Assembly: GCA_964438085.1 (NCBI GenBank)
Contig: CAYTIU010000001.1
Location: forward strand, 1 to 30,771
Reading direction: 5' to 3'
Source: an uncultured Candidatus Saccharibacteria bacterium
Lineage (GTDB): Bacteria > Patescibacteriota > Saccharimonadia > Saccharimonadales > UBA4665
DNA length: 30,771 bases
Shown here: positions 1,850 to 5,261 of the stretch, piece after piece
Layout: the number at the start of each line of letters is the position of its first letter
Numbering within the stretch: position 1 is the first letter of the stretch
Made by a program: the position numbers and the translations under genes
The notes under the pieces: model-generated
The model's database searches: none
The model's input: only the letters and a program-made list of their open reading frames with translations
Told to the model about the DNA's origin: nothing

Positions 1850-1877
1850 TTTACATCTATGGCGAGCATGCTAAAAT
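1850..1877 (+). promoter_or_regulatory. Sigma70-type promoter upstream of the riboswitch
   Basis: TTTACA (1850-1855), N16, TAAAAT (1872-1877) preceded by TGC (extended -10). Confidence 0.55.
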
Positions 1878-1903
1878 ACAAGAGATTCTTTAATAACCTA
1901 AAT

Positions 1904-2003
1904 AAATATAAAGAGTGCAGCGAGAGACCTAGCTTTACGACCTGCCGGCAACCTGTGTAATATAAGGTGCTTCATCTAGGCCGCAGCAGACGGAAAGATA
2001 TTT
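1904..2003 (+). ncRNA. SAM-I (S-box) riboswitch aptamer
   Basis: P1 AAATAT/ATATTT (1904-1909/1998-2003); AAGAG junction; P2 GCAG/CTGC; kink-turn-like GA...ACGA; P3 GGCAACCT...AGGTGC; pseudoknot CCTAG(1928-1932)/CTAGG(1976-1980); P4 CCG/CGG; AAAGAT. The downstream gene is a Cys/Met enzyme. Confidence 0.88.
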
Positions 2004-2019
2004 GCAGAGTATGTATTTT

Positions 2020-2057
2020 ATCCTTTCCGCTTGCAAAGTAGAAGGGATTTTTTATTT
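2020..2057 (+). terminator. Intrinsic terminator of the riboswitch expression platform
   Basis: Stem ATCCTTTC(2020-2027)/GAAGGGAT(2041-2048) followed by TTTTTATTT. Its 5' arm TATCCTTTCCG can instead pair with CGGAAAGATA (1991-2000) as an antiterminator. Confidence 0.8.
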
Positions 2058-2088
2058 GGAACAACAAGTAGTAAATAAAGAAGGGTCG

Positions 2089-3216
2089 GTGCCCTGTTTT
2101 GAGTCAGTCGAAGATTGTCAGAAAAGCCTACAAGCTCGGCATACATTTGAGCCTGTAGATTTATACCACCGTGACAGTAGTTCGGAGCTATATGAACTTG
2201 AAGACCGTATTGCACGTTTTACTCGCAGTAATGCAGCTGAAACAGTTGTCTATGCGAGCGGTATGACCGCAGTAACGAGCGCTATAACAACTGGGCTTGC
2301 ACACGCGGAGCAGGAGGAGCGGCCAACTATAGCATGTGCTCAGCAAACCTACGGCCAAACAAAGCGCTACGTTAATTGTCATCTCGCACAAGACCAGGGC
2401 GCACGTGTAGTTTGGTTTGATAGCGGAAACGCAGAGGATACACAACGAGTTATCGAAACCCACCAGCCGAACATAATAATCAGCGAAACTATTGGTAATG
2501 GGCCAGAGATGCCAATACTCGATATTCCTAATTTACTGCGAAACATACGAGCTTTGAAGAATCGCCCGGTAACTATTTTAGATAATACCTTACCGCTTTC
2601 TACTGAATTGCCCGTACACGAATACGTCTCTGAAGAAGATAATGTTATCGTAGCCGAAAGCGGCACAAAATCTTACGCTTTTAACAGGGAAATGCTCGGT
2701 ATTGCATACAGTAAAAATCTAGAGCTTATAACACACATGCGCCAGCAACGGCGAGCACTTGGTACAGCGCCAGGCATATACAGCCAAGCCGCAATTAGTA
2801 CGTTTTTGCCAGAAAATATTGAGGCGTTTGATGCGCGTAACCAGAAGATATACGAGAATAATGCTACACTCGCAGAAATACTCCATGCAGTGCCAGATGA
2901 GACAGGCTTCTCAGTATCGCACCCGAGCCTACCGACTCACGATAACTACAAATTAGCAGCGGAGCGGGGGCTTGCCGTTGCCTCGCCAATGTTATTTTTG
3001 ATATGCACTGCAGATGGTATTGACCAGTTTCAGCTAAGTCGCAAACTTTACGCCTCAGAAGCCGTACGCGAACAAGTAGATATTAGCCAGAGCTTTAGTT
3101 TTGACCGCACTAAGTTGTTACCCGACGAACATAATCCCTCTATACGTATCTCTTGCGGCTACGAAACCGATGTACAACGACTCGGCAAAGCTTTGATAGA
3201 AGCCAGTGCTTACTAA
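2089..3216 (+). CDS. PLP-dependent Cys/Met metabolism enzyme (cystathionine gamma-synthase/lyase or sulfhydrylase family)
   Basis: Family motifs YHR, YASGM, TYGQT, ILDNT, SGTKSY (PLP lysine) and IRISCGYE. Start moved from TTG 2002 (inside the riboswitch) to in-frame GTG 2089, after the terminator and a purine-rich AAGAAGGG. Confidence 0.85.
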   Translation: MPCFESVEDCQKSLQARHTFEPVDLYHRDSSSELYELEDRIARFTRSNAAETVVYASGMTAVTSAITTGLAHAEQEERPTIACAQQTYGQTKRYVNCHLAQDQGARVVWFDSGNAEDTQRVIETHQPNIIISETIGNGPEMPILDIPNLLRNIRALKNRPVTILDNTLPLSTELPVHEYVSEEDNVIVAESGTKSYAFNREMLGIAYSKNLELITHMRQQRRALGTAPGIYSQAAISTFLPENIEAFDARNQKIYENNATLAEILHAVPDETGFSVSHPSLPTHDNYKLAAERGLAVASPMLFLICTADGIDQFQLSRKLYASEAVREQVDISQSFSFDRTKLLPDEHNPSIRISCGYETDVQRLGKALIEASAY

Positions 3217-3280: not shown

Positions 3281-3886
3281 ATGACAAATGCGTTGATATT
3301 ACACGGAAAGCCCAAAAAAGAAACATATTTTAACCGCGATATTCCATCAGCCAGTAATGCAATATGGATGCCGTGGTTACAGCAAGAGCTTTTACTGCTT
3401 GGAATACCTACGCAAACACCTGAAATGTTTAATGCTTGGCAGCCCGACTATAAACTGTGGTCAAGTGAGCTTGAAAGGTACGATGTACACTCCGACACGC
3501 TGCTTATCGGGCACAGTATGGGCGCAGGGTTTATTGTGCAGTGGCTCAGCGAGCATACAGATGTGTCAGTCCGGCATATTTTTCTGGTAGGGCCATCGCT
3601 TGGTGATAAGTTTACGCCTGAGGAAACATTTGATGATCCACCTATCGGTGGATTTTTCGAATTTGAGATTGACCCTGCATTATCCAAAAGAGCCAAAAGT
3701 ATTACAATATTCCACTCCGATAATGATAATCAGCGAGTTAATAGCGCGGTACAGTATATTCAAGAAAAGATCCCAAGCGTGGAGTATCAAAAATTCCATA
3801 ATTATGGCCACTTCCGGGGCAAACGCGACATGCCCAGCGACACTTTCCCCGAGCTACTCGAGGCAATTTCTAAAAACATTAATTGA
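3281..3886 (+). CDS. Alpha/beta hydrolase, RBBP9/YdeN family
   Basis: LILHG start, W.PWL, GHSMG nucleophile elbow, HSDND (Asp) and GHF (His). Confidence 0.85.
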   Translation: MTNALILHGKPKKETYFNRDIPSASNAIWMPWLQQELLLLGIPTQTPEMFNAWQPDYKLWSSELERYDVHSDTLLIGHSMGAGFIVQWLSEHTDVSVRHIFLVGPSLGDKFTPEETFDDPPIGGFFEFEIDPALSKRAKSITIFHSDNDNQRVNSAVQYIQEKIPSVEYQKFHNYGHFRGKRDMPSDTFPELLEAISKNIN

Positions 3887-3972: not shown

Positions 3973-4656
3973 TTAATTGCCATACCATTTTTTACGAGCT
4001 TCTAGATACTTTTTGCGCATATCTGCGGACTTATTATTGTGCGCCGAAAGTTTATCAATAAGGTCTTGGGTTGACGTTACGTATTCGTTGTCTTGTTCGA
4101 CATAATGTGGTTTATTCCATCGTTGAAATCCTAATAAGAATAATATATCAGCAAGCGAGTTGAGGATTTCACGAATCTTCCTGTCACCAGGTGCTTGTGA
4201 GCTATTTCGTTTGTTAAGCTTCACGAAGTGAGCAAGATGATGTCTTAGGTTGTGCATCATTTCAAGATTGTCTGCCTCATTTTTTAGAAGATTTTCGAAG
4301 AGTTGGATAGCTGACTTTTTTCTTATTGTTCGTGTTCCATCGTATAGGTACTGAGCAAGGCTGCCGTGCTCATATTTCCTAGGTACCGCTTCGTGCGCCG
4401 ATGAATCCCAAAAACCACCAATAAATCCATCGAGCTCTATGTAAAAGGCTTGCGTCATTGACTCCAGACTTGTGCCAAGAAACGAACTACAGTCTCCCCA
4501 TTCATATAGGACGCTTTGATAGTATTTGGCCGTATCGGCATCGACTGATTTGTTTGTGTGAAGGCGTAATTCTGACATAACTGAATAGAGCCGCATAAGC
4601 TTCAGGTATCTAAGTGTTAGTTCGTGGTATCGTTTAGTTTTTGAAATCGTAGGCAT
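3973..4656 (-). CDS. Hypothetical protein, HEPN-like (AbiU2-like) putative RNase
   Basis: Largely helical-looking 227 aa with R-x4-H motif NLRHHLAH preceded by an SL..YL segment. Own extended -10 (TGT-TACAAT, 4675-4667). Confidence 0.45.
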   Translation of the reverse strand: MPTISKTKRYHELTLRYLKLMRLYSVMSELRLHTNKSVDADTAKYYQSVLYEWGDCSSFLGTSLESMTQAFYIELDGFIGGFWDSSAHEAVPRKYEHGSLAQYLYDGTRTIRKKSAIQLFENLLKNEADNLEMMHNLRHHLAHFVKLNKRNSSQAPGDRKIREILNSLADILFLLGFQRWNKPHYVEQDNEYVTSTQDLIDKLSAHNNKSADMRKKYLEARKKWYGN

Positions 4657-5186: not shown

Positions 5187-5261
5187 TGGCTAGGGCGGAG
5201 GGATTCGAACCCCCGAATGCCAGGACCAAAACCTGGTGCCTTACCACTTGGCCACGCCCTA
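5187..5261 (-). tRNA. tRNA-Gln(TTG), CCA encoded
   Basis: Reverse complement TAGGGCGTGGCCAAGTGGTAAGGCACCAGGTTTTGGTCCTGGCATTCGGGGGTTCGAATCCCTCCGCCCTAGCCA folds as a cloverleaf with anticodon stem CCAGG/CCTGG, anticodon TTG and T-loop TTCGAAT. Confidence 0.97.

What the first reader, a model, noticed from the sequence alone, without database searches (positions are those of the whole stretch)
1850..2091. Complete SAM-I riboswitch transcription attenuator hidden inside the called ORF start
The promoter, aptamer with a 5-bp pseudoknot (CCTAG/CTAGG), antiterminator (1991-2000 with 2019-2029) and U-tailed terminator are all visible. SAM binding should stabilise P1 and terminate transcription. Metabolite-sensing control of an amino-acid gene is unexpected in a lineage regarded as largely auxotrophic. 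It also corrects the gene start to about 2089.
Basis: partly seen in the sequence, partly recalled or inferred. Interest (0 to 1): 0.7.

Follow-up and report, generated by a model that had tools for sequence, protein, structure and literature searches.

The report
SAM-I riboswitch before Saccharibacteria PLP enzyme
This is a genuine but ordinary S-adenosylmethionine-sensing RNA switch, common in this group of tiny-genome bacteria, that turns off an uncharacterised methionine-family enzyme when SAM is plentiful; the enzyme it controls is more interesting than the switch.

Summary
Window 1903-2004 (+) is a full-length SAM-I (RF00162) aptamer. It scores 39.5 bits, below Rfam's 44.4 cut-off, so default annotation misses it. 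A lineage model built without this copy gives 87.8 bits. The same aptamer precedes orthologues of the downstream gene in 14 of 18 related genomes, 13 above the cut-off. P2, P3, P4 and the pseudoknot covary.

A terminator hairpin (2020-2048) with a U-tract, and an antiterminator (1986-2000 with 2019-2034), are present and conserved. This is the classical OFF-switch layout.

First, the start codon is most likely TTG 2056, right after the U-tract, with its Shine-Dalgarno inside the terminator's 3' arm, not GTG 2089. The hairpin could therefore block both transcription and translation. Second, the switch is not unexpected in this lineage (Candidatus Saccharibacteria). SAM-I occurs in 28 of 36 family genomes and 30 of 150 phylum genomes searched, mostly before metK. 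Earlier follow-ups in this scan had already seen it in other CPR genomes.

The regulated gene is a very divergent Cys/Met-family PLP enzyme. It is sometimes in an operon with metK, in genomes without a recognisable methionine synthase.

The parts
1850..1877 (+). Sigma-70-type promoter: -35 TTTACA (1850-1855), 16-nt spacer, extended -10 TGc-TAAAAT (1869-1877). The predicted transcription start is near 1884-1890.
   Evidence: 10 of 12 matches, TG present. A TGn-TAnnnT box lies at the equivalent distance upstream of the aptamer in the orthologue leaders. The start site is inferred, not shown.
1889..1898 (+). Degenerate copy (TTTAATAACC) of a lineage-conserved leader motif (A/C)TTAACAAT(T). The motif sits between the -10 box and P1; its function is unknown.
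   Evidence: The exact 8-mer is present upstream of 11 of 21 lineage SAM-I leaders and near-matches in most others. Genome-wide there are 47 copies, about the number I estimate from base composition, so it is not a general genomic motif.
1903..2004 (+). SAM-I (S-box) aptamer. P1 is 1903-1909 with 1998-2004. P2 is 1915-1946, with tandem GA/GA of the kink-turn at 1922-1923 and 1939-1940. P3 is 1947-1971. P4 is 1975-1996.
   Evidence: RF00162 39.5 bits, model 1-108. Lineage model R1, built without this copy, 87.8 bits, E 8e-29. Covariation.
1928..1932 (+). Pseudoknot 5' strand (P2 loop, CCUAG).
   Evidence: Pairs with 1976-1980. The four canonical pairs are 100% paired, with 3 of 4 covarying across 25 aptamers.
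1976..1980 (+). Pseudoknot 3' strand (J3/4, CUAGG).
1986..2034 (+). Antiterminator helix. The 3' strands of P4 and P1 (1986-2000) pair with the 5' arm of the terminator (2019-2034); -13.5 kcal/mol. It is mutually exclusive with both P1 and the terminator.
   Evidence: Minimum-free-energy folds and energy evaluation. 88% of cells are paired across 16 leaders against 40-57% in slid controls, with no significant covariation.
2020..2057 (+). Intrinsic terminator. The hairpin is 2020-2048 (8 bp, a C-A mismatch, 4 bp, a triloop; -11.2 kcal/mol). The U-tract is 2049-2057 (UUUUUAUUU).
   Evidence: The stem is 97% paired in 16 leaders. All 14 orthologue leaders have a comparable hairpin (-8 to -16 kcal/mol) plus a T-run.
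2041..2047 (+). Probable Shine-Dalgarno (GAAGGGA), lying inside the 3' arm of the terminator hairpin, 8 nt before TTG 2056.
   Evidence: Positional homology with AGAAAGGA in 14 orthologue leaders and in the genome's own metK leader. The anti-SD could not be checked because no 16S 3' end is in the assembly.
2056..3216 (+). Regulated gene: a divergent Cys/Met-metabolism (gamma-family) PLP enzyme of 386 aa, most likely starting at TTG 2056. GTG 2089 is the in-frame alternative.
   Evidence: PF01053 79 bits. It lies far below every NCBIfam equivalog cut-off. Invariant Y-x-R, SGM, DNT, S-x-T-K and C-terminal Arg motifs appear in 17 orthologues, and the N-termini align with TTG 2056.

Best explanation
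Window 1903-2057 is a SAM-I (S-box) riboswitch acting as an OFF switch on a divergent Cys/Met-family PLP enzyme gene of a Candidatus Saccharibacteria bacterium.

Transcription starts at the promoter at 1850-1877.

When SAM is scarce, the 3' strands of P4 and P1 (1986-2000) pair with 2019-2034. This antiterminator prevents the 2020-2048 hairpin from forming. RNA polymerase reads through, and the Shine-Dalgarno at 2041-2047 is free for initiation at TTG 2056.

When SAM is bound, the four-way junction, the pseudoknot and the weak all-A-U P1 are locked. The 5' arm of the hairpin is then released. The hairpin plus U-tract terminates transcription, and in any full-length transcript it also sequesters the Shine-Dalgarno.

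Shown here: the aptamer architecture with covariation, the mutually exclusive helices, their conservation, and the link to metK and methionine genes. Inferred: SAM binding, termination in vivo, and the choice of start codon.
For: (1) A full-length RF00162 match of 39.5 bits, E about 1e-7. A lineage-specific model built from 25 other aptamers scores this one at 87.8 bits.

(2) Orthologues of the downstream gene carry the same aptamer directly upstream in 14 of 18 family genomes, 13 above Rfam's cut-off. The same holds in 22 of 32 named Saccharibacteria or Daviesbacteria records.

(3) Covariation across 25 aptamers: 91% of cells are paired against 35-41% in slid controls. Fourteen pairs carry compensatory changes, including 3 of 4 pseudoknot pairs. 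None of 500 shuffles reaches the observed score. The 16 full leaders agree.

(4) The highly conserved consensus positions are kept: UAU...AUA in P1, AGAG in J1/2, GCAACC and GGUGC in P3, and GA/GA in the kink-turn (alignment). By recalled knowledge of the SAM-I crystal structure, these include the ligand-contacting nucleotides.

(5) Energetics fit an OFF switch. The ON conformer is -21.6 kcal/mol and the ligand-free OFF conformer -18.2. P1 alone is +2.1, so it needs ligand and tertiary contacts.

(6) The terminator and antiterminator are conserved in all orthologue leaders and in the genome's own metK leader.

(7) The regulon makes sense. The genome's other SAM-I copy precedes metK. In six related genomes metK is adjacent to this PLP gene on the same strand.
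Against: The Rfam score is 4.9 bits below the curated gathering score.

This copy has the shortest P3 and an irregular P4 (3 bp, a bulge, 1 bp) among the orthologue leaders, and its P1 is made only of A-U and G-U pairs.

The terminator and antiterminator are conserved mainly through sequence identity, so covariation does not prove them (183 of 500 shuffles do as well).

The T-run also serves as the SD-to-start spacer, so its conservation does not by itself prove termination.

There is no experimental or transcript evidence; no RNA run was listed.
Confidence: 0.85

Rival explanations
1. The aptamer is a real SAM-I sensor, but control is purely translational. The 2020-2048 hairpin works only as a Shine-Dalgarno sequestor, and the T-run is merely the SD-to-start spacer, not a terminator tail.
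For: The probable SD (GAAGGGA 2041-2047) lies in the 3' arm of the hairpin, and the likely start, TTG 2056, directly follows the T-run. The same compact design is seen in 13 of 14 orthologue leaders and the metK leader. The 5' arm AUCCUUUC resembles an anti-SD-like strand.
Against: A hairpin of -8 to -16 kcal/mol followed immediately by 5-7 U meets the usual criteria for an intrinsic terminator in every leader. The two mechanisms do not exclude each other.
Confidence: 0.1
2. The aptamer is a decaying, non-functional relic of a SAM-I riboswitch, and the gene is now expressed constitutively or attenuated constitutively.
For: It has the lowest RF00162 score among the orthologue leaders (39.5 bits against 40-58). 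P3 is shortened, P4 is irregular, and the upstream TTAACAAT motif is degenerate.
Against: All invariant core positions of the 16-leader alignment are kept. P2, P3 and the pseudoknot are fully paired, and the pseudoknot even gains a fifth pair. Terminator and antiterminator are intact. The lineage model gives 87.8 bits. Other orthologue leaders also fall under the cut-off (L042; L068, L069, L059, L075), so a low Rfam score is a trait of the lineage rather than a sign of decay.
Confidence: 0.04
3. It is a chance resemblance, or a member of another class of the SAM clan (SAM-IV or SAM-I/IV) rather than SAM-I.
For: The score is below the cut-off. One lower-scoring match to a family of the same clan overlapped it and was suppressed.
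Against: E is about 1e-7 with a full-length model match. RF00162 was the best-scoring clan member. A P4 stem sits in the SAM-I position. Orthologue leaders are above the RF00162 cut-off, and covariation supports the SAM-I architecture.
Confidence: 0.01

Closest known systems
SAM-I / S-box riboswitch (Rfam RF00162), e.g. the Bacillus subtilis metK, yitJ and metE leaders and the Thermoanaerobacter tengcongensis metF-H2 aptamer
   Same: It has the same four-way junction P1-P4, a kink-turn in P2, and a pseudoknot between the P2 loop and J3/4. The conserved core is kept (UAU/AUA in P1, AGAG, GCAACC/GGUGC). The P1 3' strand is shared with an antiterminator that competes with an intrinsic terminator. 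It uses OFF logic and controls methionine/SAM genes.
   Different: It scores under Rfam's cut-off. P1 has only A-U and G-U pairs, P3 is short and P4 irregular. The pseudoknot is CUAG/CUAG rather than the consensus GG/CC type. The expression platform is very compact: the terminator's 3' arm carries the Shine-Dalgarno and the U-tract is the SD-to-start spacer, so the start codon follows the terminator directly. A lineage-specific TTAACAAT motif lies just 5' of P1. The regulated enzyme belongs to no characterised subfamily.
SAM-I leader of metK in the same genome (contig 57, 744-850, minus strand) and metK leaders of other Saccharibacteria and CPR bacteria
   Same: The aptamer sequence is nearly identical, with the same AUCCUUUC...GAAAGGA terminator/SD hairpin, the same T-run followed directly by the start codon, and the same upstream TTAACAAT-type motif. 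The two are probably paralogous leaders.
   Different: The metK copy passes Rfam's cut-off (59.9 bits) and has a regular P4. It controls SAM synthetase rather than the PLP enzyme.
Cys/Met-metabolism PLP enzymes (Pfam PF01053): methionine gamma-lyase, cystathionine gamma-lyase/synthase, cystathionine beta-lyase, O-acetylhomoserine sulfhydrylase
   Same: The regulated protein has the family fold signature, with invariant Y-x-R, SGM, DNT, S-x-T-K (the PLP lysine) and a C-terminal Arg. A profile of 17 orthologues hits methionine gamma-lyases best in the PDB (72 bits).
   Different: It reaches only 63 bits or less against NCBIfam equivalogs whose cut-offs are 366-790 bits. It has Y-x-Q-T where, from memory, canonical members have Y-G-G/C-T. 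It occurs in genomes where no MetE, MetH-type domain, AhcY, LuxS or Pfs was found. Its reaction is unknown.

Membership tests
SAM-I riboswitch (RF00162) | Score at or above Rfam's curated gathering cut-off of 44.4 bits. This is an operational criterion, not a structural one. | tested here: not met
   39.5 bits, model 1-108. Thirteen of 14 orthologue leaders pass. A lineage model built without this copy gives 87.8 bits. The shortfall comes from a shortened P3 loop and an irregular P4, not from the core.
SAM-I riboswitch (RF00162) | A four-way junction with helices P1-P4 supported by covariation. | tested here: met
   91% of cells paired and 14 pairs with compensatory changes, in P1, both parts of P2, P3 and P4. 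None of 500 shuffles reaches the score, and slid controls give 35-41%. The window row fits the same columns.
SAM-I riboswitch (RF00162) | A pseudoknot between the P2 terminal loop and J3/4. | tested here: met
   1929-1932 pairs with 1976-1979, plus a fifth pair 1928-1980. The four pairs are 100% paired in 25 aptamers, with CUAG/CUAG changing to CUGA/UCAG and GAG/CUC.
SAM-I riboswitch (RF00162) | A kink-turn in P2 (tandem sheared G-A pairs). | tested here: met
   GA at 1922-1923 faces GA at 1939-1940, between the two parts of P2. These columns are conserved in the leaders. This rests on sequence only; the geometry was not tested.
SAM-I riboswitch (RF00162) | Conserved ligand-pocket nucleotides: the P1 A-U/U-A pairs, G of J1/2, the A-A-C and U-G of the P3 internal loop. 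| tested here: met
   UAU 1907-1909 and AUA 1998-2000, AGAG 1912-1915, GCAACC 1948-1953 and GGUGC 1966-1970 all match the upper-case consensus positions. They are invariant in 16 leaders. Their assignment to ligand contacts rests on recalled knowledge of the SAM-I crystal structure.
SAM-I riboswitch (RF00162) | Selective binding of S-adenosylmethionine. | not testable with these tools
   This needs in-line probing, ITC or equilibrium dialysis.
S-box transcription-attenuation leader | A P1 3' strand shared with an antiterminator that competes with an intrinsic terminator. | tested here: met
   Antiterminator 1986-2000 with 2019-2034 (-13.5 kcal/mol). Terminator 2020-2048 (-11.2) followed by UUUUUAUUU. 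ON is -21.6 against OFF -18.2 kcal/mol. Both are conserved in 16 leaders. Termination itself was not tested.
S-box regulon | Location upstream of methionine/SAM metabolism or transport genes. | tested here: met
   The downstream gene is a Cys/Met-family PLP enzyme. Lineage SAM-I leaders precede metK, a homocysteine S-methyltransferase and a canonical PF01053 enzyme. metK is adjacent to the PLP gene in six genomes.
Characterised Cys/Met PLP subfamilies (MGL, CGL, CGS, CBL, OAHS) | A score above an NCBIfam equivalog cut-off. | tested here: not met
   The best is 63.2 bits against a cut-off of 440. The enzyme is filed only at the superfamily level (PF01053).

The most novel reading that the evidence does not exclude
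The riboswitch marks a new, lineage-restricted family of gamma-type PLP enzymes that supplies methionine for MetK by a route needing no methionine synthase. Examples would be gamma-replacement on a scavenged homoserine or homocysteine derivative with methanethiol, or conversion of another host-derived sulfur amino acid.

The grounds are as follows. The gene is switched on only when SAM is low. It sits in an operon with metK in six genomes. It is the only Cys/Met-family enzyme in this genome. And 17 of the 18 related genomes that carry it show no MetE, MetH-type domain or MetE-like protein.
Probability: 0.3. Interest if true: 0.55.

Novelty: new member of a known kind. Interest (0 to 1): 0.3.

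Why it matters
The switch itself adds little, since SAM-I is among the best-understood riboswitch classes. Three points have practical value.

(1) Rfam's cut-off misses this copy and several orthologous ones. Riboswitch counts in Saccharibacteria and other CPR genomes are therefore underestimates, and gene callers extend ORFs into the leaders.

(2) The compact platform merges the terminator, the Shine-Dalgarno and the start-codon spacer. It is a tidy natural design that could serve as a small regulatory part for genetic tools in Patescibacteria. A 2024 review names riboswitches as promising candidates for inducible expression there (PMC11665869).

(3) The switch points to an uncharacterised PLP enzyme as part of the SAM-shortage response of bacteria thought to depend on their hosts for methionine. 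This gives a concrete, testable entry into how these epibionts obtain methionine.

Tried and rejected
- The default Rfam scan at gathering threshold found only a tRNA. The aptamer appears only with permissive filters.
- The simple terminator scan did not list the 2020-2048 hairpin because of its stem mismatch. It listed a weak 2082-2095 hairpin instead, which I do not regard as functional.
- The whole-leader fold is not more stable than shuffles (z = -0.4). This is uninformative for a bistable, AU-rich leader.
- RNAalifold on the aptamer alignment recovered P2, P3 and P4 but not the AU-rich P1. P1 was therefore imposed from the Rfam architecture and tested by pair counts.
- The first pattern-based search for relatives of the enzyme in genome contigs found nothing. 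The alignment-based search worked.
- Transcript evidence: no RNA holder listed, and no reads were laid.
- Literature: five full-text searches combining riboswitch with CPR, Patescibacteria, Saccharibacteria or TM7 found no paper describing natural SAM riboswitches in these lineages. The passages checked were irrelevant to SAM-I in CPR. The library lacks many subscription papers.
- No 16S 3' end was found in the assembly, so the anti-SD could not be confirmed.
- The neighbouring genes in the window (acyltransferase 906-1844, alpha/beta hydrolase 3281-3886, ORF 3973-4656) are not conserved next to the orthologues, so they were rejected as operon partners.
- The second PF01053 match in the genome (contig 17) is a DegT/PseC-type sugar aminotransferase with no SAM leader. 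It is unrelated to methionine.
- ATG 2011 and TTG 2002 were rejected as starts because they lie inside the aptamer or antiterminator.

Full report
**1. What is in the sequence**

The intergenic stretch after the stop of the upstream ORF (906-1844) holds a sigma-70-like promoter. It consists of TTTACA at 1850-1855, a 16-nt spacer, and TGc-TAAAAT at 1869-1877, matching 10 of 12 consensus positions.

A scan of the whole window against Rfam at gathering thresholds finds only a tRNA at 5190-5261. With permissive filters on 1780-2150, there is a full-length match to RF00162 (SAM-I, model positions 1-108) at 1903-2004. It scores 39.5 bits against a gathering score of 44.4, with E = 1.1e-7. The same hit appears in a whole-genome search at E = 5.9e-8.

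The alignment keeps the highly conserved consensus positions: UAU/AUA in P1, AGAG in J1/2, GCAACC and GGUGC in P3, GA/GA of the P2 kink-turn, and GAAAGAUA at the 3' end. The score is lost in a shortened P3 loop and an irregular P4.

**2. Is it more than chance?**

Yes, on four independent grounds.

(a) The same 816-kb genome (66 contigs, 92% complete) has a second SAM-I copy that passes the cut-off (59.9 bits). It lies directly before metK, and its sequence is very close to the window's copy.

(b) Orthologues of the downstream gene (30-44% identity) exist in 18 of 150 genomes of the same family. Fourteen of the 18 loci have an RF00162 match directly upstream, 13 of them above the cut-off. Two of the four loci without a hit end at a contig edge.

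(c) In named public records, 22 of 32 loci encoding this protein have the aptamer upstream, including one Daviesbacteria MAG. These records overlap in part with the 18 loci above.

(d) A covariance model built from 25 lineage aptamers, excluding the window's copy, scores the window at 87.8 bits (E about 8e-29). It finds exactly two copies in the genome.

**3. Structure and covariation**

On 25 aptamers, the Rfam-type architecture (P1-P4 plus pseudoknot) has 91% of cells paired, against 35-41% when partners are slid by 1-3 columns. Fourteen pairs carry compensatory changes. None of 500 shuffles reaches the observed covariation score.

The pseudoknot covaries: CUAG/CUAG becomes CUGA/UCAG or GAG/CUC. 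The 16 full leaders, window included, give the same picture.

**4. Expression platform**

The 3' strands of P4 and P1 (1986-2000) can pair with 2019-2034. This gives 14 pairs with C2022 bulged, at -13.5 kcal/mol.

The stretch 2020-2048 can instead form a hairpin of -11.2 kcal/mol, followed by UUUUUAUUU.

Without ligand, the antiterminated conformer (-21.6 kcal/mol) is favoured over aptamer plus terminator (-18.2). P1 alone is unstable (+2.1). This is what a ligand-dependent OFF switch should look like.

Both helices are conserved in all orthologue leaders: the terminator is 97% paired and the antiterminator 88% paired, against 40-57% in slid controls. Because the sequences hardly vary, covariation does not add proof for these two helices.

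**5. The start codon**

The longest ORF starts at TTG 2002, inside the leader.

In 13 of 14 orthologue leaders, and in the metK leader, an in-frame ATG lies 0-6 nt after the T-run, with AGAAAGGA in the 3' arm of the hairpin. The window has an in-frame TTG at 2056, 2 nt after the T-run, with GAAGGGA 8 nt upstream.

With this start, the N-terminus has 11 residues before the conserved V-P-x-F motif, against 9-11 in the orthologues. GTG 2089 has only 3-4 nt between its GAAGGG and the start codon.

I put TTG 2056 at about 0.75. The consequence is that the terminator hairpin also sequesters the Shine-Dalgarno, so transcriptional and translational control are probably combined.

**6. Lineage, and whether this is surprising**

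Record titles of the orthologue loci name Candidatus Saccharibacteria / Saccharimonadales.

RF00162 matches occur in 28 of 36 genomes searched in the same family and 12 of 24 searched in the rest of the order. They occur in 30 of 150 genomes sampled across the phylum, 20 of them above the cut-off.

Most copies precede metK. Others precede this PLP enzyme, a homocysteine S-methyltransferase, a canonical PF01053 enzyme, and an unassigned protein of about 320 aa.

Earlier follow-ups in this scan had already reported SAM-I leaders before metK in Parcubacteria and Saccharibacteria, and before an unknown CPR protein.

I found no open-access paper that describes these leaders.

**7. The regulated gene**

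It belongs to the Cys/Met PLP superfamily (PF01053, 79 bits). It is far below every NCBIfam equivalog cut-off. A 17-sequence profile reaches only 72 bits against the nearest solved structures, which are methionine gamma-lyases. The atlas has a Saccharimonadota-rich cluster with only a generic name.

The catalytic motifs Y-x-R, SGM, DNT, S-x-T-K and the C-terminal Arg are invariant.

metK lies next to it on the same strand in six genomes, downstream after 10-85 nt in five and upstream in one.

In the window's genome I found no MetE, MetH-type domain, AhcY, LuxS or Pfs, and no homologue of the other lineage Met genes. The only other PF01053 hit is a sugar aminotransferase.

Of the 18 related genomes with the enzyme, none has PF02574. 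Only one (G149) has MetE-type proteins, and there they sit in a cluster with the enzyme and metK.

OFF logic plus linkage to metK suggests that the enzyme supplies methionine or a direct precursor when SAM is low. Which reaction it catalyses is unknown, and this remains inference.

**8. Verdict**

This is a genuine SAM-I riboswitch, a new member of a well-known class. It has a compact combined terminator and SD-sequestering platform, and it sits just under Rfam's cut-off. The most interesting open question is the function of the enzyme it controls.

Noticed in passing
window 1889-1898; L033-L050 and L001-L031, immediately 5' of each aptamer: A conserved (A/C)TTAACAAT(T) motif lies about 7-11 nt after the -10 box and just before P1 in most lineage SAM-I leaders, before both metK and the PLP gene. 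It should therefore be at the very 5' end of the transcript. The window has a degenerate TTTAATAACC. Genome-wide the 8-mer occurs 47 times, about my composition-based chance estimate, so it is specific to these leaders. I found no convincing pairing partner.
   Followed up: partly
G000 contig 57, 744-850 minus strand (L001): A second SAM-I riboswitch in the same genome (59.9 bits) precedes metK. It has the same terminator/SD hairpin, and its ATG directly follows the T-run.
   Followed up: yes
L033, L040, L042, L048, L059 (metK downstream); L037/L061 (metK upstream): In six Saccharibacteria genomes the divergent PLP gene and metK are adjacent on the same strand, with gaps of 10-85 nt where metK is downstream. 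This implies a PLP-metK operon. In four of the five with metK downstream the PLP gene has a SAM-I leader; L040 (G149) and L037 (G091) show none.
   Followed up: partly
L012:1667-2608 and L030:451-1467 (minus strand): An unassigned protein of about 320 aa with no Pfam hit sits behind SAM-I leaders in two genomes (39% identical to each other). In G149 a relative lies next to a Meth_synt_2 (MetE-type) gene, the PLP gene and metK. It may be a MetE-associated or MetE-like component.
   Followed up: partly
L049 and L050, downstream of the PLP gene: In the more distant subclade of orthologues (about 30% identity, with longer N-termini), the next same-strand gene begins with a threonine-synthase N-terminal domain in L049. 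The L050 neighbour looks similar but was not scanned. This hints at a link to phosphohomoserine chemistry.
   Followed up: no
L033 (G121) leader: This orthologue leader has the aptamer and terminator but no in-frame ATG, GTG or TTG between the T-run and the conserved V-P-x-F region. Its start codon is unclear.
   Followed up: no
L070, L073: Orthologues sit on contigs labelled Candidatus Dormiibacterota and Candidatus Micrarchaeota archaeon. These are probably mis-binned Saccharibacteria-like contigs or transfers. L073 has no SAM-I hit upstream.
   Followed up: no
window 5190-5261 minus strand: A tRNA gene (63.6 bits) is the only Rfam match in the window at gathering threshold.
   Followed up: no
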